Virus record (IMG/VR): IMGVR_UViG_3300032132_000001
Location: 298,573 to 362,572 of that record
Source: a virus
Direction: 5' to 3' (one strand)
DNA length: 64,000 nucleotides
Made by a program: the position numbers and the translations under genes. Shown piece after piece: positions 2,554-59,587 of the stretch. The notes below the pieces were generated by a model, which worked only from the letters and a program-made list of their open reading frames with translations, had not been told where the DNA came from and did not search any database. Position 1 is the first letter of the stretch. Each line of letters opens with the position of its first letter.

Positions 2554-2946
2554 ATGGCTCAGATACGTAGAATTGAACGCATCATAACCGAAGATCCAGA
2601 TGTCCTGTTGGAAAAAGGACCATCCTATAAACGAATTTTGTCTGTACTGAAGCATCATCTAATCTTTGGTGGTGGTGATAGGAAACCAACTAAAAAGGAA
2701 AATGAGTTGGTAGACCTGTTCAACCGTGGCGTATCGATGGAAGAGGTGATCTACGCCATGCTTCAAGATAAGTGTATCGGAAACGTAGGCTCGACGTACC
2801 TGAAGACTATTATTGGTCGCGGCATCCGTGAACTATGGCCCATGGAAGTTAATAATGTCAGGCGACTTATCGGACTGAAACCGGTCAAGGTTGACGTGAA
2901 GAAGGCCGTCAAGAAAGCCGTCAGAAAAGCTCGTACCCCGAACTAG
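2554..2946 (+). CDS. hypothetical protein, member A of the lineage-specific I(T/S)DDPDV family
   Basis: Start set at the internal ATG (MAQIRRIERIITEDPDVLLEKGP...). Shares ITEDPDVL...GSTYLKTIIGRGIRE with 59141-59587, 6556-7179 and 26583-27596. Confidence 0.5.
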   Translation: MAQIRRIERIITEDPDVLLEKGPSYKRILSVLKHHLIFGGGDRKPTKKENELVDLFNRGVSMEEVIYAMLQDKCIGNVGSTYLKTIIGRGIRELWPMEVNNVRRLIGLKPVKVDVKKAVKKAVRKARTPN

Positions 2947-6555: not shown

Positions 6556-7179
6556 CTATATTTTATTTATGATATCTGCGACGTTGTAGGTGTCAACATC
6601 ATGGAGCTGATTGGCGCTCAAGAACTTAGCACCACTGAACTCCTTATTATGCTTCAGCCTACCACCAACAATTTTACATAGAACAAATACTACGTCTTCG
6701 TTGTCTTCTTGTTGGATGATCTTTATAGCCTTACACTTGATGCCCATTTCTTCTTGGGCTTCACGGCAGGCGGCTTCTTCTGGGCTTTCTCCCTTCTCGA
6801 TGAAGCCTCCTGGGAAGACCCATTTCCCACATCTGCCGTCGCCACCGCAGGCTGTAGACTTCCCGAGAAGCCACTTACCTTTATGGTGGATCACCGCAAC
6901 AGCAGATTTGGGGATGTTAGGGACATCAGGGTCATCAGTGATCATGGAAGCTATAGCTTCAAGCTTAACCTTTTTCAACTTCTGCCTATTGGTGATCAAC
7001 TCTTCTATCTCGTTCTCATCTAAGGGGGCTGCATAATCTCTTATGATGTCATTGATGCGCTTGGTCAGACCTAAGATTACTGACCTTGCAGAGATATGCC
7101 CTTTTAGCATGACGTGGATAGCTTTCTCAAGCTCTCTATCCACAAGTGGCTTTACTTCTCTCGGAATTCCTCTGGCCAT
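6556..7179 (-). CDS. Nudix hydrolase fused to an I(T/S)DDPDV-family N-terminal domain
   Basis: C-terminal GGFIEKGESPEEAACREAQEEMGI matches the Nudix box GX5EX7REUXEEXGU; N-terminal 100 aa carry ITDDPDV and a segment similar to the C-terminal halves of the other family members. Confidence 0.7.
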   Translation of the reverse strand: MARGIPREVKPLVDRELEKAIHVMLKGHISARSVILGLTKRINDIIRDYAAPLDENEIEELITNRQKLKKVKLEAIASMITDDPDVPNIPKSAVAVIHHKGKWLLGKSTACGGDGRCGKWVFPGGFIEKGESPEEAACREAQEEMGIKCKAIKIIQQEDNEDVVFVLCKIVGGRLKHNKEFSGAKFLSANQLHDVDTYNVADIINKI

Positions 7180-10165: not shown

Positions 10166-10708
10166 GTGACAGAATCTAGACACTGGAAAGCGCAAAGGTG
10201 CGCGATCCTTCTCGATGTACAAAACTTATTCTATGCGACCAAAAACAACTACAGTCGCACAATCGCATATGAGCGATTCTTAGACTGGGCCGCAAGAGGT
10301 CGGTCGCTTGTACGTGCTATAGCGTACACAGTAGAAAAAGCTGATGCAAACCAGGAAAGCTTCAAGCGCTTGCTGTCTGACATTGGCTGTGAACTAAGAT
10401 CTAAGCTGCTGATCGAAAGAAGTGACGGTTCCAGCAAGGGAAACTGGGATGTTGCGATAGCAGTGGATGCGATCCAGATTGCACCAAGCGTGGATGTTGT
10501 GATCCTCGGTACGGGTGATGGCGACTTTGCGTATCTGACTAACGCGCTCAAGTACATGGGAAAGAGAGTTGAAGTCACGTCAGTATCTAACTGCACAGCG
10601 ATGGATCTAATCCAAGCTGCAGATGAATACAGAGAGATACCAGAAGAAGTGATGATGCCAGCTCGGAGTTCTGGGCCTCGATCATATAGTCGCAAAAATA
10701 CTCCATGA
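10166..10708 (+). CDS. NYN-domain (LabA-like, DUF88) putative RNase
   Basis: AILLDVQNL ... GNWDVAIAVDAI ... VVILGTGDGDFAYL are the three conserved acidic motifs of the NYN/LabA domain. GTG start with an AGGAA SD. Confidence 0.6.
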   Translation: MTESRHWKAQRCAILLDVQNLFYATKNNYSRTIAYERFLDWAARGRSLVRAIAYTVEKADANQESFKRLLSDIGCELRSKLLIERSDGSSKGNWDVAIAVDAIQIAPSVDVVILGTGDGDFAYLTNALKYMGKRVEVTSVSNCTAMDLIQAADEYREIPEEVMMPARSSGPRSYSRKNTP

Positions 10709-11325: not shown

Positions 11326-11571
11326 ATGGCTATTAGCACCAAGATCAACAAGTCTAAGCACTGGTTGGTAGAGAAGTCCAGAAAGCGTCTTCTCTGCCAC
11401 ATCGAGCAGATGCCGCGCCTACAATTCACCTCTGGCGACATCACCAGCTTCATCGCCGGAAGGACTACCTACGCCGAGGCTTGGCGTCTCATTCGCGAAG
11501 CGGGTTCCGTCCGTCGTGTCGGTGCACCTCGTGGGACCGCGACCCTCTGGCGGAGAGCGAAGCAGCAGTGA
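11326..11571 (+). CDS. hypothetical small basic protein (81 aa)
   Basis: Internal ATG of the track ORF 11191-11571, placed right after the upstream stop with a strong SD (TAAGGAGAC, 7-nt spacer); [21 protein letters not shown]... Confidence 0.4.
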
Positions 11572-12131
11572 AGTTCAAGAAACCATCGCTCTTCAAGCTG
11601 TGCACCAAAGATGAAGCTACGCTATCCTTACCCTCTTGGCCAGTAACTCTGGAAGAGGGTAAGGAGGTCTTGATCCGGCTGCATCAGCATTTCAACCCAG
11701 ATGAGGGAGTAGGTCTGGCTGCCCCTCAGCTTGGAATCCACAAACGGGTATGCATGATCCATATCTCGGATGACAAGTACCCTGGTGGGTTCAAGCTAGA
11801 CTTGGTCAACCCTATAATCAGAAGCACAGCAGGCGAGACCATTCGCCATAAGGAGATGTGCTTCTCGGTTAGTAAGAGAACTCAGTATGCTGTAGCCAGA
11901 CATACTGAGATCACCGTGGAAGATGACCTCAATGGGGCTGTAACAGTCTCTGGTTTTCCAGCGTTCGTGGTCCAACATGAAGTGGACCATCTTAATGGGA
12001 TTACCATTCGTGCTAAGGGTACCAAGGTCGGAATGCGCCCGATAGTACGTAATGACGTCAAGGTTGGGCGAAATGCGCCTTGCCCTTGCGGCAGTGGTAA
12101 GAAACATAAGAAATGCTGCGGAGACCTATAA
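11481..12131 (+). CDS. def: peptide deformylase with a C-terminal SEC-C zinc-binding motif
   Basis: All three PDF motifs are present: [10 protein letters not shown] (GxGLAAxQ), EMCFS (EGCLS equivalent) and QHEVDHLNG (HExxH). C-terminus [14 protein letters not shown] is the SecA-type SEC-C motif. The start is ambiguous (ATG 11481 or in-frame GTG 11568, the latter abutting the upstream stop). Confidence 0.8.
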
Positions 12132-12466
12132 TGGACCAGCAAGCTCTTGGTAACGATGTCTGGGTGAGGGTGCTACCACCTGACGAGAGAACACCTGGTG
12201 GGTTGATCCTGCAAAGTGCAGAGAGCAACATGGGTGAAATCGTCAACATCGGTCCGGAAGTCCACGAGAAGCAGAAGCTCTACAAACCAAGCCAGCGGGT
12301 AGAAGCTGGAGACTTTATCTGGCTTCCTCGCGGCTCAAAGCTCGGAGAGCAGTACAAGGTTGGGAAAGAGATCTATATTCTCCTCCCCTTCACGCACTGC
12401 CGGTCGAAGTTTACTTCCCAGACTTCTTCGACGACCGACGCTCAGCTTTCGGCAACTTCCGCTTAA
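12131..12466 (+). CDS. groES: GroES-like co-chaperonin (cpn10 fold)
   Basis: Start at the internal ATG overlapping the def stop (TAATG). DVWVRVLPPDERTPGGLILQSAESNMGEIVNIGPEVHE...VEAGDFIWLPRGSKLGEQYKVGKEIYIL follows the GroES pattern (V.V....TAGGI.L........G.V.AVG.G......V..GD.V.F.KYGG.E........Y.I). Confidence 0.55.
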   Translation: MDQQALGNDVWVRVLPPDERTPGGLILQSAESNMGEIVNIGPEVHEKQKLYKPSQRVEAGDFIWLPRGSKLGEQYKVGKEIYILLPFTHCRSKFTSQTSSTTDAQLSATSA

Positions 12467-13043
12467 CCATTACCTTGTCGGCGAACCCGTACTTCACTGC
12501 TTCTTGAGCAGTGAAGTACTTGGTGTTCCGGTACATCTCCAAGAACTCTTTCTTGAGCATGCCCGTCCGTTCAAGGTAGATCTTGTGGACTGTCTGCTCC
12601 ACCTTCTTGGAGTGGTCTGCATAGGCTACTAGTTCCTTCGGAGTTCCCCAGAAGGATTCCTGGCCATCGTGTATCATCATGATAGCGTGTGGAGCCATGA
12701 TTCTTATGTCTGCGGCCTGGAAGATGATACTACCCATGCTCATGCAGTAGCCATATGCAGTGATGGTTACTCGGCAAGGGGAATTGCGAATAGCGTCGTA
12801 GACTGCCATGCCATGATAGTAGTCCCCGCCTGGGGAGTTCATAGTGACAGTGATCGGGTCCTTCGACACTGAATTCAGGATTGTGAACGATTTGATTGCC
12901 ATTTCAGCAATCTCGGCAGTCAACTCGTCGTCGTCGTCACTTCCAATGTAGATGTTTCTGTTTTCGACATCTAGATGATAATCGAAATAGCGCTTGATTC
13001 CTGCGTCTCGATCTTTGGGTTGCTTCCCTTCAGTCATCGCCAA
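12411..13043 (-). CDS. ClpP-family serine protease (S14)
   Basis: TVTMNSPGGDYYHGMAVYD...ITAYGYCMSMGSIIF...IMMIHDGQ aligns to the ClpP INSPGG / ICxGxAASMG / MIHQP blocks (Ser and His present). Convergent 56-nt overlap with the groES-like gene. Confidence 0.7.
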   Translation of the reverse strand: MAMTEGKQPKDRDAGIKRYFDYHLDVENRNIYIGSDDDDELTAEIAEMAIKSFTILNSVSKDPITVTMNSPGGDYYHGMAVYDAIRNSPCRVTITAYGYCMSMGSIIFQAADIRIMAPHAIMMIHDGQESFWGTPKELVAYADHSKKVEQTVHKIYLERTGMLKKEFLEMYRNTKYFTAQEAVKYGFADKVMVKRKLPKAERRSSKKSGK

Positions 13044-15167: not shown

Positions 15168-18100
15168 ATGAAACGACGTCTTATCAAGAACAAGAAGCTT
15201 GGATTCGTGGTCCGAGAGGCCGCTCCAGAAGATCCAGATCCAGAGTTCATCGAACCGGAAGATCTACCGGACGCGCCACGCCAGACTCACCGTGCTGGCG
15301 AGAAGTATATTGACCCTGATAAAAAGGACCCCGGAACCCCCATGGGCAAGGCCCGCAGGGATATTCCAGCAGGTCGGGGCCTACCAGCTGTCAAGAAGGG
15401 AGACCCGATACTATATCCTGGCCCTGGGCCAGAGAGACGGGAAATGGCTGCGCAGATGAAAGCGCAGCAAGAAAGGCGACCACAAGACATTGCAAAGGAA
15501 TTCGATAGCCAGTCTGTAATTGATGACGCCAATATGATCCATGGCCAGACCAAGCTGCGGACGAACCATCTAGCTCATCTAAACAAACTGCTTGACTGGG
15601 AAGGGGCTGAGGACGACACACGGGCTGCTGAAGCTAAGGGCGCGGTAATGCGTGCTATCACCAGGCACTCCGAAGCGCTGGCAAACCCGAAAAACGAAAA
15701 GCAAGAGAGCCTTTCCGACGAGATCGTCAGCAAGCTGAAAATCGCAGCGGCGTCAGCTGACGATCCAGATCTAGAAGGAATGGATCAAATAGAGGCAGAT
15801 GAACTATCTGCCAAGGCTACCAAAGCACTTGAACTAATAAGTGGAGATCTAATCTCGGTCGATGATTCCGAGATGGACGATTTCGAAGATATCCTCCCTG
15901 GCTTGGAGCGCGGTGAAAACGAGACCGACGAAGAGTGGATTGCTAGACTGAACGAACGCTATCGTCCACCGGAAGTAGATGAAGACACATGGCAAGAGTT
16001 CGATGACCTATTCATGGGTAAAGTGGATCCAGAAACTGGAGCACTAGACACTCTAACAAGGCAGGACATCACCTCAATAGAAAAAGCCAATGAGATGTCT
16101 ACCATTCGCGCAAGCGGTGATGGAGATCCGGAGCGTGAAGCCGCAGCGGGAATGAAGACCAGCTTGAAGCCTTACAAGACATTTATGAACAATGTCATGG
16201 CTATCAAGCAGGTAGATGACTACGACAAAAGGCGAGAACTGTTCAACAAGTACGCAACAGGCTTCGTGGCGTACATGAACCGCTATTCAGTCACAAACAT
16301 CGAAGACATTAAGACTGTAAGAGACCATGAGCGGGCTTGGAATAGCGTTGCCAGAAAGATTCTAACTATGGGTGGCGACCCGCGCCACATTAACCTTCTA
16401 GAAGAAGAGAATCGTCTAGACGCTTTCTCTAGAGACCTCATCAACATCGTGTCGTTCTACAGTCAAGAATCTGATGACAAGAATCTTAGTGCTATCTGGG
16501 ACGAGGAAGGCATTCTTCAACGTGTTGAGTACTATGAGGAGAAAGCTGCACCCCTAAGGCAGGCTCACAAAGCTGCAGAAAAGCAGAGAAGAAGTTGGGA
16601 TACTCAGGCTGAGAGAACCAAAGAAGAACTGAGAGGTGTTGGTAAGGAAGACCAAAAAGCCCGAAAGGCTGCAAAAGCCAAAAAGGAAAGAGCCGAGAAG
16701 TTCCAGGAAACTTGGACTGAGAAAGCAGAAGAAGCTAAGTCTAATCTGGATATAGTCCAAAAGCATATCGATTTCTACAGTGGTGCAGCTCAGCGATTCA
16801 CGGAACTCAAGGATCGCCAGCGAAACCAGCAGGAATCTTTTGCGTCTAGTTTGGTTGGTATCTCTAGTAGGCCAGAAGAATATCAGCAACTAATGACAGA
16901 GGTACAAGCTCTAAAGAATAGCGAAGAGCGTATTAAGAGGCAAGGTGGTAGAGCATGGTCAGTGCTTCAGGCAGCAGAGAAGAACTTCCAAGGTGTCCCT
17001 CCCCTTTCTGACAGCATGCTGAACACGCTAGGGCACCGCACTGGCAGCTTTGCAGCAAGGAAGGACCTAGAAGACCAGCTCCTCGCCATTTCGGAGACAG
17101 GACAGCTCTGGAACCCAGAAGATCCGGACTCTGAAGAACAACGGACAAAGCTTGTAGACCAGATTCAATCGTTGGAGAAATATTCAGAACTATTGGCTCT
17201 GCATGCAGAGCTTCTTGATGGAGTCTCTAAGCTAATCCCTCAAGAGTTGGGACTAGATGTAGAAGATCTACAAAGAGAACCTGTTAAGTTCCTGCAAGCT
17301 CTTGCTAGCTTCAAAGAGGCAGCAGACCAATCTGCAGCTGCGGGAGATCCACAGGCAGAAGAGAGATCAGCCCAAGCCGATAGACTTGAACAAGCTTCTA
17401 CCCAATTGGCCAATGTCCGTACTCAGGTAGCTGAAAAAGCAGACATCATGGGTCACATCGACGTGGAGTGGATGGGATCTGGCCTAGACAAAGACGATGA
17501 CGAACTGAAGGGTCACGGCGGTGGAATCGAGCGTCTAGTTGGCATTCTACGTCACATTTTGGAAAATGATGGTCAAGTACCACCAGAAGTTAGAACTGAT
17601 ATGGCCAACCAACATGGCCGACTAAAAGAGAGATTAGAAGGGGAAGTAGAGTCGCTCAAGCGTATCGCAGCGATCCGTGTACGAATGGAGAACTCCAAGT
17701 CGGATCTGGAGGTGTTCAATAGGTCGCTACAAGAGCTACACCAGGAAATCAAGAAGCTTGGAATCGTACGAAAGTACAAGGCGCACGACGAGCTATTGCG
17801 TCTGCTAGAGCAGTCGGAACCAAAATACAACGAAGATAGCTTCCATCAAGCAGTGGAACATTGGAAAAGCTTGGCTGGAGCTTCAAAAGACCGGAAGCGT
17901 CTAAGAAACGTGATGGCTCTCCAGAAGGAGCTTGGGTCCCACGAGCCGGGAAGCGACAGCTGGAAGAACATCTATTCCCAAATCCAGGAAACGATCGACC
18001 AAAGCGGCCTTGGCGACGAAATCATTCCATCAGAAGAAGACGAAGAAGACTCAGAGTTCATGGACGTGCCGGAAGGTATGACCGCCGATGAGCTAGATGA

Positions 18101-21100
18101 CTACGAAGAGGAAAACGCTCCTACTTCTATCAACAAGGCTTTGGGTAAAGCAAAAGGCGACTTCGACCCGGCGTCGTTCAGCAAAGCAATGAAAGAATGG
18201 GACCGTCTGAAACTGTCCCATGATGTCACTTCCGGGAAGGGAGAGGTAGGTGAATTCCTAAACACCTACATGGCTCAATTCAACAAGCCGATGTCCTACC
18301 AGATCATCCCTCTGGGCGCTGGTTATGTTGCGATTATCGACATCAGAATCAAGAAGCTAAAAGATCTATACCATTATCTTGAGCAGATTCGTACTGGGAA
18401 AGATGATCCGGCAGATAAAGAGTCTGAAGATCTTCCTAGCGGCATAAAAGAGCAAACTGCCGCTGCGAAGGCTAAAGAGGAATTCAGAAAGAAGGCTATT
18501 AAATCTGGCGAAATCGACCCGAACGATCCAGAAGAGAATAGAATCGACTCGGCCGACCTGTTCAACGCCCTTGGATCTCATAAGTATAAGGTAGTTGGAT
18601 CGGCCGCTCGCCGCGCTGACACATGGCAGAAGTACGGCACATTCCAGAAGCTGGTAGAGGCGCAAGAAAAGGTCCGCAAGAAAGTTGGTGACCTATTGGA
18701 CCAACTATATGGCATAGGCCAATGGCACAAAGCTCTAAAAGACCCAGAATTGCATTTGCCGCCGGGGCTGTTCCATGCTACTGGGCCAATTCGACCAGAA
18801 GACCTCACCGACAGAGGTGCTAGCCAGGGTGTGCGAGTAGAGACTGCCCCAGAAGACAAGCTGGTCGGTCTCAACACTATGCAGCAACTACATCGAAAGA
18901 GTGAAGGAAAGGCTCTAAAGGCTGAAGCGAGAAGAGCAGAAGCAGAAGAAGAGATCGCTATACTAAGGAATGCTACTCCAAACAGATTAAAGCAGAGTGG
19001 TGTTCACCTTGGGTGGGATAGTAATATTCCATATGAAAAACTCGCTTTCATGTACCAAGATACTGATTCGCCATTTTATTACAAAACTGTGAGGAACCAG
19101 CTCGCTAAACTATCTCTCCAAGGTAGTGGTGGGTCAGTAGATGAAAGGAATCTTCATAGGCGCTTGAGGAAGCTTGAAGGCCGTGCTAAGCATGCAAGAA
19201 AGATGTCTAAGATCGCTCGGTCTAAAGAGAAAGCTTGGAGGAAGCAACTTCTGTTCCTCGGAGCGCTGGCAGATGAACGCCCTGACCTATCTCCAGAATA
19301 TCTCAAAAGAAGAAGAGTGGAGATTGAGCGCAAAATAACTGAGTACAACAGTGAAAGGCGCGCATTCAACGTGAAAGTTCGTGATGTTCGCGAAGAGATC
19401 AAACAGTACAACTCTGCTAGCTGGCAAGATCTGAACACACGAGATAGGAGCAAGACCAAATCAAAGTCTGGAGGTCTGCTTGCGCCAGATGAAGTTCACC
19501 TAGCGTACGGGTTTGTTGAATATGTTACCAATACTATCAAGAAACTGGAAGGGAGAATCACTGCCGCTAATAACTCTTTGATAGGTGCCAACCAGAAGAG
19601 TACGATCGACGCCAAAAAGAAAGCGATGCTGAAGAATGCCATCAACTATCTGCTGGGAGGGCGCGATTCGTCTGGCGAAGAGATCCCGTTACACACAGTA
19701 ACAGAATATGGCCCGGACCAGAACAAGACGGTAATGTTCAACCCGGTGGTGGAGATGTATGGCTTGCGCCCATATGCCGGTAAGGGCGAGTATATGCCAC
19801 ATATCCCTCACAGGTACATGAGCGAAGAAGAAATAGACAACCGCACAATGTACTCTGCGTTGGATGCTTGCATCGATCAGCTGGCTACGATCGTTTCCGA
19901 TGTCGTACTCTACCTGATGGGTCACGGCAAGCTAATGGTTCGTGGTCATGGGTTTGCCACCGAACGTGGTTGGGCTTTCCTTCTTGCTGGTGTAGTCCAA
20001 CCATCAGCTGGCAAAGCAGGCCCAGGAAAAGCAACCGCCCTACAGAGAATTGGTCGCGACCATCTCTACTCAGTACAACTAGAAACCGAAGCGCGGGCCC
20101 TCTGGAGAGAAGGCGACGTAGACAATATCGAGATCCTATCTAAGCTCTTGAATGCTCACAGATTGAGCCGACCAAAGGGCTTTGAAGATGCGAATCTTCA
20201 ATCATTCCACCTAGCAGAGCATCTTGATAACTTCGTCGCCGATGAAGAAGGCGAAGAAGCTGAAGTAGATCAAGAGGGAATAAGGCAGCTAGCTGGAGAC
20301 GTAAGCTACAGTACAATCAAGGGTGTGATCTCTTCCTACGATAGAGTCCTGAAGAATGCTAATGAAGCTAAGGAAGCTGCGGCTGCCAGAATAGAAGAAG
20401 CACTCGAAGAAAGTGGAGAAACTCTTGAAGGGGATGAATTAGAAGATGCTATCGAAGAAGAGTGGAAGAAAGATGGGTACGGGTCCGCTATTCGATCTCT
20501 TAATTTCTACTCTAGGCTCAACGATGGTTTCAGTGAAGATGAAGCCAAAGAAATGGCAGATCGCGCTGACGGACCGAACAATCCGAGTGTCATTCAAAGG
20601 CGTCTAGAGCAAGCTGGAACGATGGAAGAGGAGCATCTTAGAAGAGTAACTTTCGCTAAGGAAGCTATCAGGCGAGCGGTGGCGGGTGCTGGATCGGTTT
20701 CTCCGCGCCTTCTCCGAAAGATCTACACTTCTGGTACCGGAGTCCTCAAATCGGTACTAGACGATTTCAAGGATGAACAATCAGCTGGCGCGAGCATCGG
20801 CGAAAGACGAGAGAAGATCAGCCATGCGATCGCTATGAATGATACTCGCGCATCTCGGATGGATGGCAATGTAGAGATGATAACTCCAAATATGGAGGCA
20901 GCCCAGGAGGCAGGAGATGAAGCGCTAATCAAGCACTATGCTTCATATATTGAAGCATGGGAAGATCACGCCGTCGAACTGCGAAATGAAATCGCTGAAC
21001 TTCAAGTACAAGATAGAGAGCTTGCTAAAAAGGGAGAAGATCTACCAGGCAAGGAACTCAACATAGATGGAATTAAGCACACGCTCAATTGGCATCGCGC

Positions 21101-23156
21101 TAAGATGCACGATGCTAGGAAAATGGACGAGCGCAGACGTGCTGAAGAAGGGCGGCTAACTAAGCTCTATCAAAACGCCAAGATGGCTCAAGAAAGAGTA
21201 GACGCGGAAGACCTCCAGATAATGATGACCGGCGGTGAAGAAGGATGGCTAGATGTTGGTCTGCTTGCACAAGAACTTGGTCTTAAAGGATCGCAAGCCA
21301 AGCGCATCAGCCAATTGGTAAATGGAGCTAGGAAAAGGACCGCTGCCGGAATCAAGAAATTGGGTAAGCCGGCGGCGATTCTAGCTAGTGGGATGGAAGA
21401 AGCGCAAAAAATCGCTGTTGGCCAAAGATATGCGCTAAACCAGAAGATCAGAGAACTACTAGAGGACTGGATCGAAGCTAAGAAGATCCCTTCTGAACTT
21501 CCATCTCGACACCGTACTGATAAGACGGACAGTACTCTTGGAAGATTCGACCAACGCGCTAAAGAATTCAACTCACCGGACATGCGCGGTGTTGGAGCAG
21601 GAAAAGTAAGAGCAGCCGATAAAGCAAGCAGCAGCGCATTGGTACTTGCAAGAGAGCTATACAGTTCTATTGGAAGCCAGCCAACTACCATAGATGAGAT
21701 TGAAGGGATCCTACAGTCTGGCCTTCAGGACAGCCGTAAGAATTTGGCCCTCTCCCGGAGGCTGTTACAAAGTTCAGAAGAAGAGCTGAAAGAAGCAATT
21801 ACTCAAAATAAAGAGCGGGAGAGATTTACCAAGTTCACGATGGACACCTTAACTAGACTGGCAGCTCACGAAGAGTTGAACCAGAAAGAAGGTGTAGAAG
21901 TGCCTCTGTTCGACGAATCTGGTCGTGTAAACATGGATATCACCGACTGGGTTCGTAATTGGGATTGGAAAGATGTCCAGAGACGAATTTCTGTAAGTGG
22001 CACCTTCCAAGAGTCGATGTCAGAAAAAGAGTTGGAAGAGTATCGTCAAAAGAGAGCAGAAGCTGCCGCTCGCGAGACCGAAGAACAACAAGCGAAATGG
22101 AATAAAGCGAAAGCCTGGCAACCATCGGACGAGCCAATCCGAGGAGAGCGTGGTACTGCTGGGATGGGCCATAGCAAGAGGGATGACCAACTTGCAAGAG
22201 AGGTGTCGGTCCCTCTTGGTAGCGTAGGACATGCAGAACTTATTGGCAACAAGTGGGAAGCTCTAACTGGTGTACGAGTCGTCGAGATTGACGAATATGG
22301 AGATAAGGAAGAGTCAGAAGAGGTAACAGCTGAACTCACCGGAATGATGGGTGGCAGAAGGAAAATCAGGATCAGAGCAAGCGGACAAGCCGACCCAGAT
22401 GCCGACTATAGGGTAGTGGGGCTCGCCGGCAAGAGGACTATTTCCCTGGACAAAGAAGTTGCGATTAAGATCACGCCTCCGCTTCCAGCGGAGACCATCG
22501 GTAAGGGTGACCTAGTTGTAATTGAAGGGGTAGACGACGCACCGTACATCAACGGCCTGAAAGGCCACATCCGGACTGTCGATTCCAAGCGTAAGCTGGT
22601 GGTAGTGGACCTATTCAAGAATGCTGTAGTCGAAGATAAATCGGTAATACTACAGTTCAAGGAAGTCTATCCTTACTATATCCAGGAAGGCTCCCGAAGG
22701 TTCAGCACGGCACCGACAGTGAGTATAACAAACCTCATTCAAGAAATCTTCGGTAGAAAGAGGATTCTAGAAAAAGCAGAGTGGAACCTGATTCCACTCT
22801 CTCTGCGAGACGGTCTTAGCATCTGCCTCACCGAAGCGATCACTTCTGACAACTGGGAAGCAGCTGAGAGAGCTACTAACCGCTTCATCCAAGATGTAGT
22901 TGTAAGCGAATCGGTGAGCGACAAGATCACCAACAAACTGAAGGTAGCATGGGGTAAGAAGTACTCACCGAAGATCTGGCGGATGGAGATCGACAAGTCT
23001 CGTAAGAGCCGAGGGTTGGCAACTCACAGGGAAAAGCTAGCCGCAAACGGTGGCTCTTCGACTACTCGATCTATCGCAGACCAGTGGATGAAAGGTCGCT
23101 CGGGAATGTCCGAAAACCAGATGGACAAAATTCTCGACACGATGCGCGATGACTAA
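15168..23156 (+). CDS. giant highly charged protein (2662 aa), probably an alpha-helical/coiled-coil structural or ejected virion protein
   Basis: Single uninterrupted ATG-initiated ORF of 7989 nt; E/K/R/D/A/Q-rich with long heptad-like stretches; I found no Walker, polymerase or protease motifs; several antisense ORFs inside are composition artefacts. Confidence 0.7.
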   Translation: MKRRLIKNKKLGFVVREAAPEDPDPEFIEPEDLPDAPRQTHRAGEKYIDPDKKDPGTPMGKARRDIPAGRGLPAVKKGDPILYPGPGPERREMAAQMKAQQERRPQDIAKEFDSQSVIDDANMIHGQTKLRTNHLAHLNKLLDWEGAEDDTRAAEAKGAVMRAITRHSEALANPKNEKQESLSDEIVSKLKIAAASADDPDLEGMDQIEADELSAKATKALELISGDLISVDDSEMDDFEDILPGLERGENETDEEWIARLNERYRPPEVDEDTWQEFDDLFMGKVDPETGALDTLTRQDITSIEKANEMSTIRASGDGDPEREAAAGMKTSLKPYKTFMNNVMAIKQVDDYDKRRELFNKYATGFVAYMNRYSVTNIEDIKTVRDHERAWNSVARKILTMGGDPRHINLLEEENRLDAFSRDLINIVSFYSQESDDKNLSAIWDEEGILQRVEYYEEKAAPLRQAHKAAEKQRRSWDTQAERTKEELRGVGKEDQKARKAAKAKKERAEKFQETWTEKAEEAKSNLDIVQKHIDFYSGAAQRFTELKDRQRNQQESFASSLVGISSRPEEYQQLMTEVQALKNSEERIKRQGGRAWSVLQAAEKNFQGVPPLSDSMLNTLGHRTGSFAARKDLEDQLLAISETGQLWNPEDPDSEEQRTKLVDQIQSLEKYSELLALHAELLDGVSKLIPQELGLDVEDLQREPVKFLQALASFKEAADQSAAAGDPQAEERSAQADRLEQASTQLANVRTQVAEKADIMGHIDVEWMGSGLDKDDDELKGHGGGIERLVGILRHILENDGQVPPEVRTDMANQHGRLKERLEGEVESLKRIAAIRVRMENSKSDLEVFNRSLQELHQEIKKLGIVRKYKAHDELLRLLEQSEPKYNEDSFHQAVEHWKSLAGASKDRKRLRNVMALQKELGSHEPGSDSWKNIYSQIQETIDQSGLGDEIIPSEEDEEDSEFMDVPEGMTADELDDYEEENAPTSINKALGKAKGDFDPASFSKAMKEWDRLKLSHDVTSGKGEVGEFLNTYMAQFNKPMSYQIIPLGAGYVAIIDIRIKKLKDLYHYLEQIRTGKDDPADKESEDLPSGIKEQTAAAKAKEEFRKKAIKSGEIDPNDPEENRIDSADLFNALGSHKYKVVGSAARRADTWQKYGTFQKLVEAQEKVRKKVGDLLDQLYGIGQWHKALKDPELHLPPGLFHATGPIRPEDLTDRGASQGVRVETAPEDKLVGLNTMQQLHRKSEGKALKAEARRAEAEEEIAILRNATPNRLKQSGVHLGWDSNIPYEKLAFMYQDTDSPFYYKTVRNQLAKLSLQGSGGSVDERNLHRRLRKLEGRAKHARKMSKIARSKEKAWRKQLLFLGALADERPDLSPEYLKRRRVEIERKITEYNSERRAFNVKVRDVREEIKQYNSASWQDLNTRDRSKTKSKSGGLLAPDEVHLAYGFVEYVTNTIKKLEGRITAANNSLIGANQKSTIDAKKKAMLKNAINYLLGGRDSSGEEIPLHTVTEYGPDQNKTVMFNPVVEMYGLRPYAGKGEYMPHIPHRYMSEEEIDNRTMYSALDACIDQLATIVSDVVLYLMGHGKLMVRGHGFATERGWAFLLAGVVQPSAGKAGPGKATALQRIGRDHLYSVQLETEARALWREGDVDNIEILSKLLNAHRLSRPKGFEDANLQSFHLAEHLDNFVADEEGEEAEVDQEGIRQLAGDVSYSTIKGVISSYDRVLKNANEAKEAAAARIEEALEESGETLEGDELEDAIEEEWKKDGYGSAIRSLNFYSRLNDGFSEDEAKEMADRADGPNNPSVIQRRLEQAGTMEEEHLRRVTFAKEAIRRAVAGAGSVSPRLLRKIYTSGTGVLKSVLDDFKDEQSAGASIGERREKISHAIAMNDTRASRMDGNVEMITPNMEAAQEAGDEALIKHYASYIEAWEDHAVELRNEIAELQVQDRELAKKGEDLPGKELNIDGIKHTLNWHRAKMHDARKMDERRRAEEGRLTKLYQNAKMAQERVDAEDLQIMMTGGEEGWLDVGLLAQELGLKGSQAKRISQLVNGARKRTAAGIKKLGKPAAILASGMEEAQKIAVGQRYALNQKIRELLEDWIEAKKIPSELPSRHRTDKTDSTLGRFDQRAKEFNSPDMRGVGAGKVRAADKASSSALVLARELYSSIGSQPTTIDEIEGILQSGLQDSRKNLALSRRLLQSSEEELKEAITQNKERERFTKFTMDTLTRLAAHEELNQKEGVEVPLFDESGRVNMDITDWVRNWDWKDVQRRISVSGTFQESMSEKELEEYRQKRAEAAARETEEQQAKWNKAKAWQPSDEPIRGERGTAGMGHSKRDDQLAREVSVPLGSVGHAELIGNKWEALTGVRVVEIDEYGDKEESEEVTAELTGMMGGRRKIRIRASGQADPDADYRVVGLAGKRTISLDKEVAIKITPPLPAETIGKGDLVVIEGVDDAPYINGLKGHIRTVDSKRKLVVVDLFKNAVVEDKSVILQFKEVYPYYIQEGSRRFSTAPTVSITNLIQEIFGRKRILEKAEWNLIPLSLRDGLSICLTEAITSDNWEAAERATNRFIQDVVVSESVSDKITNKLKVAWGKKYSPKIWRMEIDKSRKSRGLATHREKLAANGGSSTTRSIADQWMKGRSGMSENQMDKILDTMRDD

Positions 23157-25954: not shown

Positions 25955-26623
25955 ATGAAGCTCAAATCTTCAGTCCAACGCCGGGCTACCATAACTGAAT
26001 CACGGAAGCCCTATAGCGCCTCTTCTCTCGGTTTTGCGTACGACGCTCTAGAACCGTACATTGACGCCGAAACCATGAAGATCCACTACTCCAAGCATTA
26101 TATTGGATATTTGGAGAATCTCAACAAGGCGATGAAAGGTGTACCTACCAAGAATCGCAAGACAGTAAAAGCTCTACTTGAGAACTTTAGTAGCCTACCG
26201 AAGACTCTCAGTGACACCCGGAAAGAGACCATCAAGTTCAACGCGGGCGGAGTGGACAACCACAACGTCTTCTGGGCCAACATCGCCCCCGGAGGTGCCG
26301 TACGACCTCACGGAGAGCTTCTTTCAGCTATCACCGCCAGTTACGGCACTCTGAAAAAGTTCAAACAGCGTTTCTCAGAGCAGGCAGGAGACCATAGAGG
26401 CAGTGGTTGGTGCTGGCTGGTGAAGAAGAGTGGCGGGTTAGGAATCGTATTGACCACCGACCAGCACAGTCCCAGATTGAGTGGATGGGACCCGATTTTG
26501 GGTCTAGACGTCTGGGAACACGCCTACTATCTAAAGTACAAGAACGATCGAAAGAAGTATATCGATAATTTCTGGAAGATTGTTAACTGGAGCGACGTCG
26601 CTTCGCGATTCGCTGTAGCCTAG
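25955..26623 (+). CDS. sodB: Fe/Mn superoxide dismutase with an approximately 20-aa N-terminal extension
   Basis: AYDALEPYID...KIHYSKHY (compare SodB EYHYGKHH), NHNVFWANIAP, and the DVWEHAYYLKY Fe/Mn-SOD signature; metal ligands His/His/Asp/His appear conserved. Confidence 0.8.
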   Translation: MKLKSSVQRRATITESRKPYSASSLGFAYDALEPYIDAETMKIHYSKHYIGYLENLNKAMKGVPTKNRKTVKALLENFSSLPKTLSDTRKETIKFNAGGVDNHNVFWANIAPGGAVRPHGELLSAITASYGTLKKFKQRFSEQAGDHRGSGWCWLVKKSGGLGIVLTTDQHSPRLSGWDPILGLDVWEHAYYLKYKNDRKKYIDNFWKIVNWSDVASRFAVA

Positions 26624-27596
26624 CTTCCGACAGCATTTCTAGTTTCCGGCGCTTCGATTCTGGCTGGAAAGTAGCCCCAGTTCCGTAAGGCCCTGCTGTT
26701 CTAGCTTCACCCGCATCGGGCTGGAAGGTAGCTCCAGTACCAGGTTCTCCTGTGCCTGCACGCGCTGTCTGAGACCCCTCTTCTCCAGCAGGGCTTTTCA
26801 AGTTGATCACAAGTGAGACCATTCCGGTCTTTGGGTTCTTCCGTACTCCAACTGCGTTTGGCGGCATCCCCAGTTTGCGGGCTACCTTATCTCTTGCTGT
26901 CTGGGCGAACCCAGTGGGAGACGAAACACGCTGAAGGTGGAGGGCTCTCTTTTTCAGCTCTGGAGAAGCGAATTCTCCACCCTGAGCTGGCGCACCAGAC
27001 TTAGCCCTTGCTTGGCTTTTCTTCGCTAGAGTCCGCTTTGCCATAGCGGCTGTACCAGGTTCTGGTCTCAGTGCCTGAGATTGGAATCCCTTTTTGGCCA
27101 GGCGTGCTCTCGCTGCCGATTTCGCGTCTTTAGGAGCAGCTGGTGGTGCTGCTGGTAACACTGGCAGCGCATCTGCTTGAGACTTGTATCCTTTTTGAGC
27201 TAGTCGGGCTCTTGCCGCCTTTCCTTGTGCGGGGCTCATCCCTCTCTTACCCAGCTTATAAGGCATCTCAGACAGGATTCCCAGACCTACCAAACCTTGA
27301 GAGAGTAAACCAGGATGGATATCTTTATCGTTGACGATTGCTTCCATGATGTCATAGAAGCCGAGATCGTCTATATGGCTCTCAGCTAGTGTTTTCTTTG
27401 GGCATTCGTTGGCGAGATCGTAAAACTTCTTAGCCGTCTCAGCCCACCTTTCGAGGGTGGCACCCTCTTTGATCATCCTGTCGAGGCGGAAGACAAGCTC
27501 TTTTGCCTCATTTTTCATCATGTCCATCGGATCCCGATAAACTACAGCAGGATCATCGGAAATCAACGATGCGATGTGGTCTATGTCGTAGTCCAT
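26583..27596 (-). CDS. I(S)DDPAV-family N-domain protein with a basic Ala/Lys/Pro-rich tandem-repeat tail (337 aa)
   Basis: N-terminus MDYDIDHIASLISDDPAVVYRDP...; tail has repeats ARARLAQKGYKSQADAL / ARARLAKKGFQSQAL and GTGATFQPDAGEARTAGPYGTGATFQPESK. Convergent 41-nt overlap with sod. Confidence 0.5.
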   Translation of the reverse strand: MDYDIDHIASLISDDPAVVYRDPMDMMKNEAKELVFRLDRMIKEGATLERWAETAKKFYDLANECPKKTLAESHIDDLGFYDIMEAIVNDKDIHPGLLSQGLVGLGILSEMPYKLGKRGMSPAQGKAARARLAQKGYKSQADALPVLPAAPPAAPKDAKSAARARLAKKGFQSQALRPEPGTAAMAKRTLAKKSQARAKSGAPAQGGEFASPELKKRALHLQRVSSPTGFAQTARDKVARKLGMPPNAVGVRKNPKTGMVSLVINLKSPAGEEGSQTARAGTGEPGTGATFQPDAGEARTAGPYGTGATFQPESKRRKLEMLSEARLQRIAKRRRSS

Positions 27597-35944: not shown

Positions 35945-36625
35945 ATGCCTATCATCATCGAAATCCGTGCCGGCGAAGGCGGCAAGGACTCCAAGCTTTT
36001 CATCCACGATCTAGCGTCAGCATATATCAAGTATGCTAACAACCTAGGTCTCAAATCTGACCTGATCTATACCTCGGAGAGCCAAGTATCTCTGAAGGTA
36101 AACGGAGACGCTGAACAGCACTTCCAGCACGAATCTGGTAAGCACTGTGTCCAGCGCGTGCCCCCGACTGAGAATAAGGGGCGCTCTCACACCTCCACGA
36201 TCACGGTAGCAGTCCTCCCGATCTTAGAGCACGTCCATGTAGACGTACCAGATAGGGACATCGAGATAAAGACGCAAGGTGGTTCTGGGCCAGGCGGTCA
36301 ACATCAGAACAAGACTGATTCTGCTGTTCGCGCCACCCACAAGCCGACCAACATCCGAGTCTTTATCAACGGGAAGGATCAACACTCCAATCGCCGGAAG
36401 GCGATCCAAATACTCAAATCCAGGATTGCTGCTCTAGAGCAGCAAAAGGTGGACGAAGAGCATAATGGAGAGCGGTTAGGTCAGATCGGTTTCGGAGGTC
36501 GCAGTAACAAGATTAGGACTTACAACTTCATAAAGAGTAGAGTTGTAGACCACCGACTGAAGACTAAGACTACACAGATCAAGAAAGTAATGAAGGGAAG
36601 GTTTGACCTGATACTGCAAACATAA
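35945..36625 (+). CDS. prfH: PrfH-like class-I peptide chain release factor of RF1 type, lacking domain 1 (226 aa)
   Basis: Aligns to RF1 domains 2-4: EIRAGEGG, CVQRVPPTENKGRSHTSTITVAVLP (RF1 RVQRVPATESQGRIHTSAxTVAV; the PxT tripeptide is PPT), GGSGPGGQHQNKTDSAVRATH (GGQ motif) and RSNKIRTYNFIKSRVVDHR (RTYNFPQGRVTDHR). About 110 N-terminal residues (domain 1) are absent, which is the architecture of RF-H. Confidence 0.75.
   Translation: MPIIIEIRAGEGGKDSKLFIHDLASAYIKYANNLGLKSDLIYTSESQVSLKVNGDAEQHFQHESGKHCVQRVPPTENKGRSHTSTITVAVLPILEHVHVDVPDRDIEIKTQGGSGPGGQHQNKTDSAVRATHKPTNIRVFINGKDQHSNRRKAIQILKSRIAALEQQKVDEEHNGERLGQIGFGGRSNKIRTYNFIKSRVVDHRLKTKTTQIKKVMKGRFDLILQT

Positions 36626-57736: not shown

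Positions 57737-59587
<1,851 letters not shown>

What the first reader, a model, noticed from the sequence alone, without database searches (positions are those of the whole stretch)
2554..2946. Lineage-specific paralog family sharing an I(T/S)DDPDV motif: four members scattered among the auxiliary genes
Members: A 2554-2946 (ITEDPDVLLEKGP), B 59141-59587 ([13 protein letters not shown]), C 6556-7179 (ITDDPDVPN, fused to Nudix) and D 26583-27596 (ISDDPAVVYRDP). Besides the motif they share a second block (GSTYLKTIIGRGIRE / [16 protein letters not shown] / ISARSVILGLTKRINDIIRD). All four sit beside or inside auxiliary-metabolism loci (the PK-TIM/rmlD cluster, sod/ADA, cysC/GT), not the structural arrays. 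I do not recognise the domain. Four paralogs in 64 kb, each with a different C-terminal module (none, none, Nudix, basic repeats), suggests a targeting or adaptor domain that delivers different activities to one common partner.
Basis: seen in the sequence. Interest (0 to 1): 0.65.

Follow-up and report, generated by a model that had tools for sequence, protein, structure and literature searches.

The report
Portable capsid-address tag on phage proteins
The four genes are not one protein family: they share a roughly 15-residue peptide tag that many uncultivated large phages put at the start of unrelated proteins, and it most likely directs them into the virus head for delivery into the host, like the capsid-targeting sequence of phage T4.

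Summary
The motif is real. It occurs four times in the window, against 0 expected, and it is conserved as peptide, not as DNA. Only A and B are homologous proteins.

The tag is not specific to this lineage. DNA-pattern scans found 172 distinct tagged ORFs in well over 100 viral and metagenomic contigs. At least 80% carry it at the extreme N-terminus, a few at the C-terminus, at both ends or in tandem. Once the tag is masked, the proteins are unrelated.

No N-terminal copy turned up among the 22 matches in 596 Gb of cellular genomes, and no paper in the library mentions the motif.

Five of six tagged IMG/VR contigs of at least 100 kb encode a T4 gp21-type prohead protease. Tagged genes sit beside the portal, protease, scaffold-like and gp23-type capsid genes in several lineages.

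The core Φ-x-x-Φ-I-x-E matches the four functional positions of the T4 capsid-targeting sequence. "LITE" is identical to the N-terminus of T4 Alt. "[IL]TE" is also conserved in the capsid-protein propeptide of this clade and is the T4 gp23 cleavage site.

Best reading (confidence about 0.6): a capsid-targeting propeptide cleaved by the prohead protease. Packaging and cleavage are untested, and the head genes of the source phage were not visible.

The parts
2554..2946 (+). Gene A, 130 aa, basic (pI 10.1). It carries an N-terminal tag followed by the A/B helical core domain with the block GSTYLKTIIGRGIRELWP.
   Evidence: ORF. Homologous to B. Rare family: 5 clusters in 5.8 billion proteins. Syntenic ortholog at 81% identity in L270.
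2572..2604 (+). Tag core of A: IERIITEDPDV (residues 7-17). Glu stands at the putative P1 position (ITE|D).
   Evidence: 26 bits against the tag HMM.
59141..59587 (-). Gene B, 148 aa, paralog of A. It carries an N-terminal tag followed by the A/B core domain (residues 44-138).
   Evidence: The core alone, without the tag, has a homolog about 0.7 kb downstream of the gp23-type capsid gene of a 408-kb contig (L195 13903-14412).
59540..59572 (-). Tag core of B: [11 protein letters not shown] (residues 6-16). Asp stands at the putative P1 position.
6556..7179 (-). Gene C, 207 aa. It has an N-terminal segment of about 70 aa, an internal tag, and a Nudix hydrolase domain (nt 6604-6900).
   Evidence: Pfam NUDIX 2e-17 at residues 94-192. 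The ortholog in L270 has the canonical FIASLITEDPDV and a conserved upstream RQKLRTVKLE, so the tag is truly internal. Seven Nudix homologs in other tag-bearing loci start about 22 aa before the domain and lack the tag.
6922..6954 (-). Tag core of C: IASMITDDPDV (residues 76-86), lying between the N-terminal segment and the Nudix domain.
26583..27596 (-). Gene D, 337 aa, pI 9.95. It has an N-terminal tag, a helical acidic region, and Lys/Arg/Ala-rich repeats (about residues 121-260, nt 26817-27236) with a basic C-terminus. No Pfam or PHROG family matches.
27543..27575 (-). Tag core of D: IASLISDDPAV (residues 8-18), the most divergent copy.
   Evidence: 22 bits.

Best explanation
The shared element is a portable peptide tag. 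Its consensus is M-x(1-6)-[DN]-P-K-[DQ]-I-A-[RK]-[LM]-I-T-E-D-P-D-[VIE]-Φ-N-E, followed by an acidic linker. It most likely acts as a capsid-targeting propeptide of the T4 type.

Proposed mechanism:

1. Inferred by analogy. The short helix (DIAKLIT) docks the newly made protein onto the scaffolding core while the prohead assembles, so unrelated cargo is enclosed.

2. Inferred from sequence. The gp21-type (Peptidase_S77) prohead protease cuts after I-T-E, and perhaps again after Φ-N-E. This detaches the cargo from the core, which is then degraded.

3. Inferred. The cargo stays in the head with the DNA and enters the host at infection, where it acts early.

In this window the cargo would be two small helical proteins (A, B), a Nudix hydrolase (C) and a basic, repeat-rich protein resembling an internal head protein (D).

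By the T4 rule that Asp at P1 allows targeting but blocks cleavage, A (ITE) would be processed. B, C and D (ITD/ISD) might be packaged uncleaved.

Shown here: the tag exists, is selected at the peptide level, is modular, is overwhelmingly N-terminal, was not found N-terminally in cellular genomes, and co-occurs with T4-type head genes.

Not shown here: binding, cleavage or packaging.
For: 1. Modularity. With the tag masked, tagged proteins show no BLASTP similarity apart from orthologs and the A/B pair. Their domains include Nudix, an AAA_33 kinase, cREC_REC, a C39 plus M14-like peptidase, a rubrerythrin/EncFtn-like fold and a weak PARP/Tpt1-like fold.

2. Peptide-level selection. Third codon positions vary freely across 31 DNA versions (for the window).

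3. Position. Of 172 distinct tagged ORFs, 161 have a start codon within about 15 codons upstream of the tag. Independently of start-codon calls, the nearest upstream in-frame stop is a median of 10 codons away, against 144 codons downstream, and 83% of tags lie in the first quarter of the ORF. Flanks that the search pattern did not force are also conserved: D-P at -4/-3 and N-E at +12/+13.

4. Phage specificity. The 22 matches in 596 Gb of cellular genomes are all non-N-terminal: some lie inside unrelated proteins, several lie in short ORF fragments of 28-107 aa that may not be genes, and one recurs in a PVC protein family.

5. Head context. In one lineage the gene order is terminase, Portal_T4 (8e-67), a 1025-aa acidic protein, a TAGGED 93-aa protein, Peptidase_S77 (9e-18), a coiled-coil scaffold-like protein, Gp23 capsid protein (1e-79). 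That is the slot held by prohead-core genes 67 and 68 in T4. Tagged genes also abut the gp23-type capsid gene in L002, L122 and L031, and the protease gene in L027.

6. Clade restriction. Five of six tag-bearing IMG/VR contigs of at least 100 kb carry this S77 protease clade.

7. Match to the T4 sequence. The IPII/IPIII targeting sequence is MKTYQEFIAE. Targeting depends on residues 4 and 7, processing on residues 8 and 10 (PMC9026906). The tag's I-A-K-L-I-T-E places its conserved I, L/M, I and E at exactly those spacings. T4 Alt starts MELITELFDED.

8. Cleavage site. 53 capsid proteins of the clade conserve RRP-[IL]-T-E-[ED]-x-D in their N-terminal propeptide. T4 gp23 loses its first 65 residues, so it is cut after F-L-T-E65 (sequence; PMC9958956). 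The protease N-termini of the clade read Φ-x-E-D.

9. T4-like genome habits. Tagged genes form tandem hypervariable arrays (9-15 per contig). Some proteins carry the tag at both termini (P0008), as in T4 Alt, where both ends are propeptides.

10. Link to the source phage. The B core has a homolog next to the capsid gene of a 408-kb contig, and the gene neighbouring B has homologs next to the capsid gene in L243 and L262.
Against: There is no proteomic, structural or biochemical evidence.

The tag HMM does not detect any T4 targeting sequence. The link to T4 is a short pattern plus context, not demonstrable homology, and Φ-x-x-Φ-I-x-E is a low-information pattern.

Only about 81 kb of the 397-kb source genome could be read. 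It contains no S77 protease, Gp23 capsid protein or T4 portal. The only protease seen is ClpP-like.

Three of the four window copies have Asp instead of Glu at the putative cleavage position.

In the window the tagged genes lie among auxiliary metabolic genes, not head genes.

In a sample centred on the protease, only 7 of 79 loci have a tag within 10 kb. The nearest GenBank relative by capsid protein (LR756511, 595 kb) has none within 20 kb of that gene.

Conservation continues 6-7 residues beyond the putative cut (DPDV-Φ-NE), which a simple cleavage site does not explain.

Most tagged proteins are acidic (median pI 4.7), unlike the basic internal proteins of T4.
Confidence: 0.6

Rival explanations
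1. The tag is a docking peptide for a different common partner that has nothing to do with the capsid. Candidates are a phage or host hub such as RNA polymerase or the phage sigma factor, the ribosome, a chaperonin, a Clp-type machine, or a phage-built intracellular compartment. The tag would recruit diverse enzymes to that partner during infection.
For: The tag is modular, helical and followed by an acidic linker, like many short linear motifs. It works at the N-terminus, internally and at the C-terminus. Several cargos are cytosolic-type enzymes that act on RNA or nucleotides: Nudix, an AAA_33 kinase, cREC_REC and a Tpt1/PARP-like fold. In the window the tagged genes sit among auxiliary genes and near a sigma factor, Cpn10 and ClpP.
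Against: It does not explain why tagged genes recur inside head-morphogenesis modules. It does not explain the restriction to contigs with a gp21-type protease. It does not explain the identity of the core with the conserved [IL]TE of the capsid-protein propeptide. No candidate partner gene was found that is conserved next to the arrays.
Confidence: 0.2
2. The tag is an N-terminal regulatory peptide that controls protein amount rather than location. It could be a degron recognised by a host or phage protease. It could also be an acidic, proline-containing nascent peptide that destabilises the translating ribosome and makes expression conditional.
For: The tag is at the very start of the protein and is followed by a D/E/P-rich stretch. 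The source genome encodes a ClpP-like protease. The idea of ribosome destabilisation by N-terminal D/E/P-rich sequences is recalled from my own knowledge and was not tested here.
Against: The strictly conserved hydrophobic positions (I, L/M, I) and the C-terminal and internal copies do not fit a purely nascent-chain effect. The head-module context and the match to the capsid-protein propeptide remain unexplained.
Confidence: 0.08
3. The conservation acts on nucleic acid. The shared 5' ends would be a translation-initiation or RNA element, or a recombination cassette that shuffles gene starts, and the peptide would be a by-product.
For: The tag includes the start of the gene. Tagged genes form tandem arrays. 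One gene carries two tandem copies, the second beginning with its own Met codon (L006 499-1029), which looks like a duplication of a gene start.
Against: Synonymous positions are close to randomised: Ala uses 4 codons, Ile 3, Thr 4, Pro 4, and Asp GAT/GAC is split 16/15. This holds even among copies within one genome. The four window copies differ at nearly every third position. C-terminal and internal copies exist.
Confidence: 0.04
4. One reading: A, B, C and D are four paralogs of one lineage-specific protein domain, each with a different C-terminal module.
For: A and B are true paralogs. All four share the motif.
Against: C and D show no similarity beyond about 13 residues. The second block in C is at chance level and is not collinear with the A/B block. 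The same tag sits on more than 100 unrelated proteins elsewhere. The A/B core also exists without the tag.
Confidence: 0.03

Closest known systems
Capsid targeting sequence (CTS) of phage T4 internal proteins IPII and IPIII (MKTYQEFIAE)
   Same: It is a peptide of about 10 residues at the extreme N-terminus, portable to unrelated proteins. It has hydrophobic residues at i and i+3, then I-x-E. It is removed by the gp21 prohead protease after the Glu. It sits on fast-evolving accessory proteins encoded away from the head genes (PMC9026906; sequences). The tag's conserved I, L/M, I and E fall at the same spacings as CTS residues 4, 7, 8 and 10.
   Different: There is no detectable sequence homology. 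The tag is longer (about 18-20 conserved residues, including D-P before and D-P-D-Φ-Φ-N-E after). It is far more conserved across divergent phages and is used on many more proteins per genome (9-15 against a handful). It also occurs at C-termini, internally and in tandem. Its function is untested.
N-terminal propeptide of T4 Alt (MELITELFDED...), the packaged ADP-ribosyltransferase
   Same: It shares the identical tetrapeptide L-I-T-E near the N-terminus, followed by Φ-x-E-D (LFDED in Alt, VFNED in the tag consensus). Alt is a packaged enzyme and both of its termini are propeptides. P0008 carries the tag at both termini, and one tagged protein is weakly ART/Tpt1-like.
   Different: The tag has DPD inserted after LITE and a conserved D-P-K-D-I-A in front of it. 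The rest of the tagged proteins is unrelated to Alt.
Maturation cleavage site of the T4-type major capsid protein (gp23, cut after L-T-E65) and the gp21 (Peptidase_S77) cleavage logo
   Same: 53 gp23-type capsid proteins of the clade that carries the tag conserve [IL]-T-E-[ED]-x-D in the propeptide. The tag reads I-T-E-D-P-D. T4 gp23 loses its first 65 residues, ending in L-T-E.
   Different: In the capsid protein the site lies about 30-45 residues into a long propeptide, not directly after a docking helix. Cleavage at this site in the environmental clade is inferred, not shown.
Propeptides of the inner-body and ejection proteins of giant phages phiKZ, 201phi2-1 and SPN3US
   Same: Large phages pack many proteins into the head and process them after a Glu with a gp21-related protease. 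Their propeptides may hold several cleavage sites (PMC9026906; PMC5694885 and PMC10052503, listed).
   Different: No common, strongly conserved address peptide is mentioned in the passages read here. Their cleavage logos have very few determinants apart from the Glu.
Cargo-loading peptides of encapsulins and encapsulation peptides of bacterial microcompartments
   Same: They are short terminal peptides joined by flexible linkers that load unrelated enzymes into a protein shell, which is HK97-fold in encapsulins. A rubrerythrin/EncFtn-like protein here carries the tag at its C-terminus, where I recall encapsulated ferritins carrying theirs.
   Different: Their consensus sequences are different, as recalled and not tested here. 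No encapsulin or microcompartment shell gene appears in the precomputed Pfam lists for about 81 kb of the source genome. The shell here would be the infectious capsid.

Membership tests
T4-type capsid targeting sequence / prohead-protease propeptide | A short peptide at the extreme N-terminus of the precursor | tested here: met
   A, B and D carry the tag within residues 6-18. 161 of 172 tagged ORFs have a start codon within about 15 codons upstream of the tag. The upstream in-frame stop is a median of 10 codons away. C is an exception (residues 76-86).
T4-type capsid targeting sequence / prohead-protease propeptide | Pattern Φ-x-x-Φ-[IL]-x-E with Glu at P1 (T4 CTS residues 4, 7, 8, 10; gp21 cuts after Glu) | tested here: inconclusive
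   The family consensus fits: I 99%, L/M/F 88%, I 98%, E 91% (the pattern scan forced some of these columns). In the window only A has Glu. B, C and D have Asp, which in T4 IPIII blocks processing but not targeting.
T4-type capsid targeting sequence / prohead-protease propeptide | Portable: attached to otherwise unrelated proteins | tested here: met
   With the tag masked, all-against-all BLASTP finds only orthologs and the A/B pair. Pfam content is diverse. The A/B core and the Nudix domain also exist without the tag.
T4-type capsid targeting sequence / prohead-protease propeptide | The genome encodes a gp21-type (Peptidase_S77) prohead protease and a T4-type head (Gp23 capsid protein, gp20 portal) | tested here: inconclusive
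   Met for other tag-bearing contigs: 5 of 6 contigs of at least 100 kb, with Pfam hits of 9e-18, 1e-79 and 8e-67.
T4-type capsid targeting sequence / prohead-protease propeptide | Sequence homology to the T4 CTS | tested here: not met
   The tag HMM gives no hit on T4 IPII, IPIII, Alt, gp67, gp68, gp21 or gp22. The best hit in 62 kb of T4 is an unrelated out-of-frame ORF at 10 bits. The resemblance is one of pattern and function only.
T4-type capsid targeting sequence / prohead-protease propeptide | The peptide is sufficient for incorporation into proheads and is cleaved off by the prohead protease | not testable with these tools
   This needs virion proteomics or fusion-protein packaging assays.
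   A against B: 6e-15. A or B against C or D: nothing beyond about 13 residues. Tag-free comparisons score at shuffle level.
Nudix hydrolase (gene C only) | Nudix fold with the Nudix box | tested here: met
   PF00293, 2.1e-17, 63.8 bits against a cut-off of 21.1, residues 94-192. The sequence reads GGFIEKGESPEEAACREAQEEMG.
Encapsulin cargo-loading peptide / microcompartment encapsulation peptide | A dedicated shell gene (encapsulin or BMC-H/P) in the same genome and the family's own peptide consensus | tested here: not met
   No such Pfam family appears in the precomputed lists covering about 81 kb of the source genome. The tag is mostly N-terminal. Its consensus is unlike the G-S-L-type encapsulin peptide, which I recall from memory and did not search.

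The most novel reading that the evidence does not exclude
The tag is a general cargo-loading label. It would let a large clade of uncultivated T4-headed phages (contigs of roughly 80-400 kb) pack a dozen or more unrelated enzymes per genome into the capsid and inject them. Candidate cargo includes a Nudix hydrolase, a PNK-like kinase, cREC, an ART/Tpt1-like protein, a ferritin-like protein, peptidases and zinc-ribbon proteins. The label works from the N-terminus, the C-terminus or an internal linker, which is more like an encapsulin loading peptide than the strictly N-terminal T4 CTS. If so, the injected early-acting proteome of these phages can be read directly from sequence. It would be much larger and more enzymatic than in any studied phage, and the tag would be a ready-made tool for loading foreign proteins into phage heads.
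Probability: 0.35. Interest if true: 0.8.

Novelty: new variant of a known kind. Interest (0 to 1): 0.66.

Why it matters
If the tag is a capsid address label, a simple sequence search would identify the proteins that a whole clade of uncultivated large phages carries in the virion and delivers with its DNA. That class includes anti-restriction and host-takeover effectors such as IPI* and Alt in T4, and it is otherwise visible only through virion proteomics of cultured phages.

It would turn more than a hundred hypothetical proteins into candidates for injected effectors. The RNA- and nucleotide-acting enzymes among them could counter host immunity.

It would extend the T4 targeting principle, so far documented mainly in T4 and close relatives, to distant environmental phages with a far better conserved signal.

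It would also offer a short tag for engineering protein delivery by phage heads.

For genome annotation, the lesson is that a shared motif does not make a paralog family.

Tried and rejected
- **Pfam and PHROGs on A, B and D.** No family matched.
- **AlphaFold2 of B with its 5-sequence alignment.** The model had pLDDT 45 and pTM 0.27. It was all-helical and unusable for fold search, so no fold search was run.
- **Profile of the A/B family against PDB sequences.** The only hit was a weak match to the N-terminal domain of RNA 2'-phosphotransferase (E = 0.1), which is not significant. My impression that the A/B block is a LuxR/sigma-region-4 type helix-turn-helix is unsupported by any tool and is dropped.
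- **The search for homologous proteins with the tag.** A 44-aa alignment gave 22 candidates and none scored, because the word index does not suit a short motif.
- **The search of protein representatives with a window-only tag profile.** Only 6 proteins had E <= 0.001, three of them the window's own. It did yield P0008 (tag at both ends) and P0010 (two tags).
- **tblastn of a 22-aa consensus tag against 50,697 GenBank phage records.** No match at E <= 10. A short query has low power, so this is only weak evidence of absence.
- **megablast of 20 kb of the window against GenBank phages.** No match.
- **Literature search for the motif strings.** Nothing relevant. The CTS-related searches found no description of this motif.
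- **Finding the source phage's prohead protease among homologs listed with contig length 397,419.** It was not among the 120 listed of 3,440 hits. An apparent link, in which P0056 and P0004 both come from a contig of 8,263 bp, was a coincidence, since L269 has no protease.
- **LR756511 (595 kb), the closest GenBank capsid-protein relative.** No tag within 20 kb of the capsid gene.
- **Walking along the 397-kb contig.** This was impossible, because only proteins encoded in the window can be looked up.
- **DNA-level explanation.** Rejected from codon usage.
Full report
**1. The observation**

The four ORFs exist as described.
- A is at 2554-2946(+), 130 aa.
- B is at 59141-59587(-), 148 aa.
- C is at 6556-7179(-), 207 aa, with a Nudix domain at residues 94-192 (PF00293, 2e-17).
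- D is at 26583-27596(-), 337 aa. It is basic (pI 9.95) with Lys/Arg/Ala-rich repeats.

The heptapeptide I[TS][DE]DP[DA]V occurs four times in the six-frame translation and only in these ORFs. A degenerate DNA pattern gives 4 matches against 0.00 expected.

**2. Not a paralog family**

A and B are homologous along their length (BLASTP 6e-15). They belong to a very rare family of 5 clusters in 5.8 billion proteins.

C and D align with A or B only over about 13 residues. With the tag removed, every comparison except A against B scores at shuffle level.

The "second block" is genuine for A and B. The C segment is a chance match, since 93-118 of 500 shuffles reach its score. It also lies on the wrong side of the motif.

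The tag is N-terminal in A, B and D and internal in C. The ortholog of C in a syntenic contig (L270) has the canonical FIASLITEDPDV and a conserved upstream RQKLRTVKLE, so the internal position is real.

Two further tagged genes of the same genome lie just outside the window:
- a 262-aa protein with an N-terminal tag (L001 3072-3860);
- a 79-aa protein with the tag near its C-terminus (L019 5577-5816).

**3. The tag elsewhere**

Back-translated DNA patterns gave these results:
- 17 and then 44 stretches in IMG/VR;
- 22 isolated matches in 596 Gb of bacterial and archaeal genomes.

None of those 22 is N-terminal. Some lie inside unrelated proteins, several lie in short ORF fragments of 28-107 aa, and one recurs in a PVC protein family.

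Pooling all viral and metagenomic loci (1.24 Mb), an HMM of the tag finds 172 distinct tagged ORFs at 18 bits or more. Of these, 161 have a start codon within about 15 codons upstream of the tag, 3 carry it at the C-terminus and 7 internally.

A measure that does not depend on start-codon calls agrees. The nearest upstream in-frame stop is a median of 10 codons away, against 144 codons to the downstream stop. 83% of tags lie in the first quarter of their ORF.

The consensus is M-x-[IV]-[DN]-P-K-[DQ]-I-A-[RK]-[LM]-I-T-E-D-P-D-[VIE]-Φ-N-E, followed by about 20 acidic residues. The flanks, which the search pattern did not force, are conserved too.

Third codon positions are close to random across 31 DNA versions. 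With the tag masked, tagged proteins are mutually unrelated apart from orthologs and the A/B pair.

Their recognisable domains are diverse:
- Nudix;
- an AAA_33 kinase, cREC_REC, a C39 plus M14-like peptidase, and a rubrerythrin/EncFtn-like protein with the tag at its C-terminus;
- a weak PARP/Tpt1-like fold.

Most have no family. They are short (median 152 aa) and acidic (median pI 4.7).

Tags come in tandem gene arrays, with 9, 10 and 15 tagged ORFs on three contigs. They also occur:
- twice in one protein;
- at both ends of one protein (P0008);
- as a conserved 30-aa tag-only mini-ORF.

No paper in the library contains the motif. A 22-aa consensus found nothing in GenBank phages, though that test has low power.

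**4. Context that points to the head**

I clustered all ORFs of the tag-bearing loci, which showed recurrent neighbours.

In one lineage (L021, L033, L046, L120, L137) the gene order is:
1. a T4-like terminase (weak hit);
2. Portal_T4 (8e-67);
3. a 1025-aa acidic protein;
4. a tagged 93-aa protein;
5. Peptidase_S77, the T4 gp21 prohead protease family (9e-18);
6. a coiled-coil protein that resembles a scaffold;
7. the Gp23 major capsid protein (1e-79).

In T4 the slot between portal gene 20 and protease gene 21 holds the prohead-core genes 67 and 68.

Tagged genes also abut the gp23-type capsid gene in L002, L122 and L031, and the protease gene in L027. In a second lineage they lie in a module with a head-tail adaptor.

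A search with the protease returned 80 loci. It shows that 5 of the 6 tag-bearing IMG/VR contigs of at least 100 kb carry this protease clade: the contigs of 146, 157, 157, 100 and 354 kb.

The association is not universal in the other direction. Only 7 of 79 protease-centred loci have a tag within 10 kb. The closest GenBank relative by capsid protein, the 595-kb LR756511, has none near that gene.

**5. Comparison with T4**

The N-termini read from the T4 RefSeq record are:
- IPII and IPIII: MKTYQEFIAE;
- Alt: MELITELFDED;
- gp67: MEGLIEA;
- gp68: MLLIPET;
- gp21: MNEPQLLIET;
- gp22: MLKEQLIAEA.

According to PMC9026906:
- The first 10 residues of IPIII suffice for packaging.
- Targeting depends mainly on residues 4 and 7, and processing on residues 8 and 10.
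- Asp at position 10 blocks processing but not targeting.
- Alt is processed at both termini.

PMC9958956 lists the core proteins. It states that gp21 removes small N-terminal peptides from IPI-III and Alt, and the first 65 residues of gp23. From the sequence, that cut falls after F-L-T-E65.

The tag's I-A-K-L-I-T-E puts its four most conserved residues at the spacings of CTS residues 4, 7, 8 and 10. "LITE" is identical to Alt, and "VFNED" echoes Alt's "LFDED".

An alignment of 53 distinct gp23-type capsid proteins from the protease-centred loci shows a conserved RRP-[IL]-T-E-[ED]-x-D in the N-terminal propeptide. The proteases themselves begin with ...Φ-x-E-D....

So the tripeptide that is the known cleavage site in T4 gp23 is conserved in the capsid propeptide of this clade and in the tag.

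The tag HMM does not detect any T4 CTS. The relationship is therefore one of pattern, context and presumed mechanism. It is not demonstrable homology.

**6. Link to the source phage**

Only about 81 kb of the 397-kb genome could be read: the window plus flanks L001, L019, L020 and L188. This stretch has no S77 protease, Gp23 capsid protein or T4 portal.

Its one protease is ClpP-like. PHROGs labels it "head maturation protease", but it sits with Cpn10 and peptide deformylase.

Indirect links exist:
- The B core (residues 44-138) has a tag-less homolog about 0.7 kb downstream of the gp23-type capsid gene of a 408-kb contig.
- The gene next to B (59776-60525) has homologs beside the capsid gene in L243 and L262.
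- Several other window genes have homologs in loci centred on the protease gene.

**7. Interpretation**

The best-supported reading is a capsid-targeting propeptide.
- A short helix docks cargo to the prohead core.
- The gp21-type protease cuts after ITE, and possibly after Φ-N-E.
- The cargo is retained with the DNA and injected.

For the window this makes A, B, the Nudix enzyme C and the basic protein D candidate head-internal or ejected proteins. A (ITE) would be cleavable. B, C and D (ITD/ISD) might be targeted but left uncleaved, if the T4 rule holds.

Binding, cleavage and packaging are all inferred, so I give this 0.6.

The main rival, at 0.2, is a docking motif for another hub. It fits the enzyme-like cargos and the flexible position of the tag, but not the head context or the match to the capsid propeptide.

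Regulatory-peptide, nucleic-acid-level and paralog-family readings are weak or refuted.

**8. Novelty**

The principle, a CTS, is known. This motif, its strong conservation, its breadth, its use on a dozen or more proteins per genome, and its occurrence at C-termini and in linkers were not found in the searched literature or domain libraries. I class it as a new variant of a known kind. Interest is moderately high because it would make the packaged proteome of an uncultivated phage clade predictable from sequence.

Noticed in passing
window 63444-63641 (+): A 65-aa ORF (MSDNELDGTLLGELEEIVLSCKEDYLKATKSGVKLAGRRVRKKMMEVKRLYKDIRDEISEKTGKK) is annotated in the precomputed table as PF07432 Hc1, the chlamydial histone H1-like protein. 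This is unusual in a phage and may hint at a PVC-group host.
   Followed up: partly
window 35945-36625 (+): A 226-aa protein has PCRF and RF-1 domains, so the phage encodes a short peptide-chain release-factor-like protein. The standard code reads the window well, and I did not examine whether this protein relates to stop-codon usage.
   Followed up: no
window 11568-13043: This cluster holds peptide deformylase with a SEC-C motif, a weak Cpn10 and a ClpP-like protease. PHROGs calls the protease 'head maturation protease' (phrog_94, 6e-49) and Pfam calls it CLP_protease. It is unclear whether this is the prohead protease or a protein-quality-control set.
   Followed up: partly
L019 3320-4957 (about 2.5-4.1 kb upstream of the window start): A 545-aa TROVE (Ro60-like) protein is encoded in the same phage genome. 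Nearby lies a QSregVF_b protein, and an NYN-domain protein lies at window 10166-10708.
   Followed up: no
window 15168-23156 (+), 23156-25285 (+), 33058-35844 (+): Very large ORFs of 2662, 709 and 928 aa have no Pfam hit on record. The 709-aa and 928-aa ORFs also have no PHROG hit, and the 2662-aa ORF was not scanned against PHROGs. They are presumably structural.
   Followed up: partly
L137 5620-8694, with homologs in about 50 loci (L194-L265): A very acidic protein of about 1000 aa is conserved directly between the Portal_T4 and Peptidase_S77 genes of this phage clade. It begins ...MDSRKFLGALNDSAQAKV... and has no family annotation. It is a candidate giant core or scaffold protein and a possible receptor for the tag.
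   Followed up: partly
L024 6393-6488; L036 565-660; L042 4084-4179; L048 8633-8728: A conserved 30-aa mini-ORF (MNPEEIARLITEDPDLNVDIRDNNWWVITV) consists of little more than the tag. It lies in a structural module next to a gene resembling a head-tail adaptor.
   Followed up: partly
L006 5333-5722: A rubrerythrin/EncFtn-like protein (PF02915, 2.6e-7; EncFtn-like, 0.0045) carries the tag at its C-terminus. As I recall, that is where encapsulated ferritins carry their loading peptide. A homolog (L049 3675-4175) sits in a structural gene module.
   Followed up: partly
L058, L067, L068, L070 (genomes of Akkermansiaceae, Verrucomicrobiaceae and Planctomycetaceae): Large PVC-bacterial proteins contain ...ESEMIARIITDDPDDLMPP... 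internally. The segment resembles the planctomycete cytochrome-type domain I know as PSCyt1, but I did not check this with Pfam. I take the resemblance to the tag as chance.
   Followed up: partly
window 2554-2946 and 59141-59587 (A/B core): A profile of the A/B family gives one weak match, to the N-terminal domain of RNA 2'-phosphotransferase Tpt1 (PDB 8tfz, E = 0.1). It is not significant. It is worth noting because other tagged proteins are RNA-end-processing types (AAA_33 kinase, cREC, Tpt1/PARP-like).
   Followed up: partly
window 37648-38502 and 56876-57736: One phage segment holds two patatin-like phospholipase genes.
   Followed up: no
L040 3878-5554: A 552-codon open frame contains three tag-like segments, with the extended form ...ITEDPDE[IV]NPLD[DN]... 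and Cys-rich segments that look like zinc ribbons. It is either several fused cassettes or genes read through. This contig (IMGVR_UViG_3300045738_002037) uses a longer tag variant.
   Followed up: no
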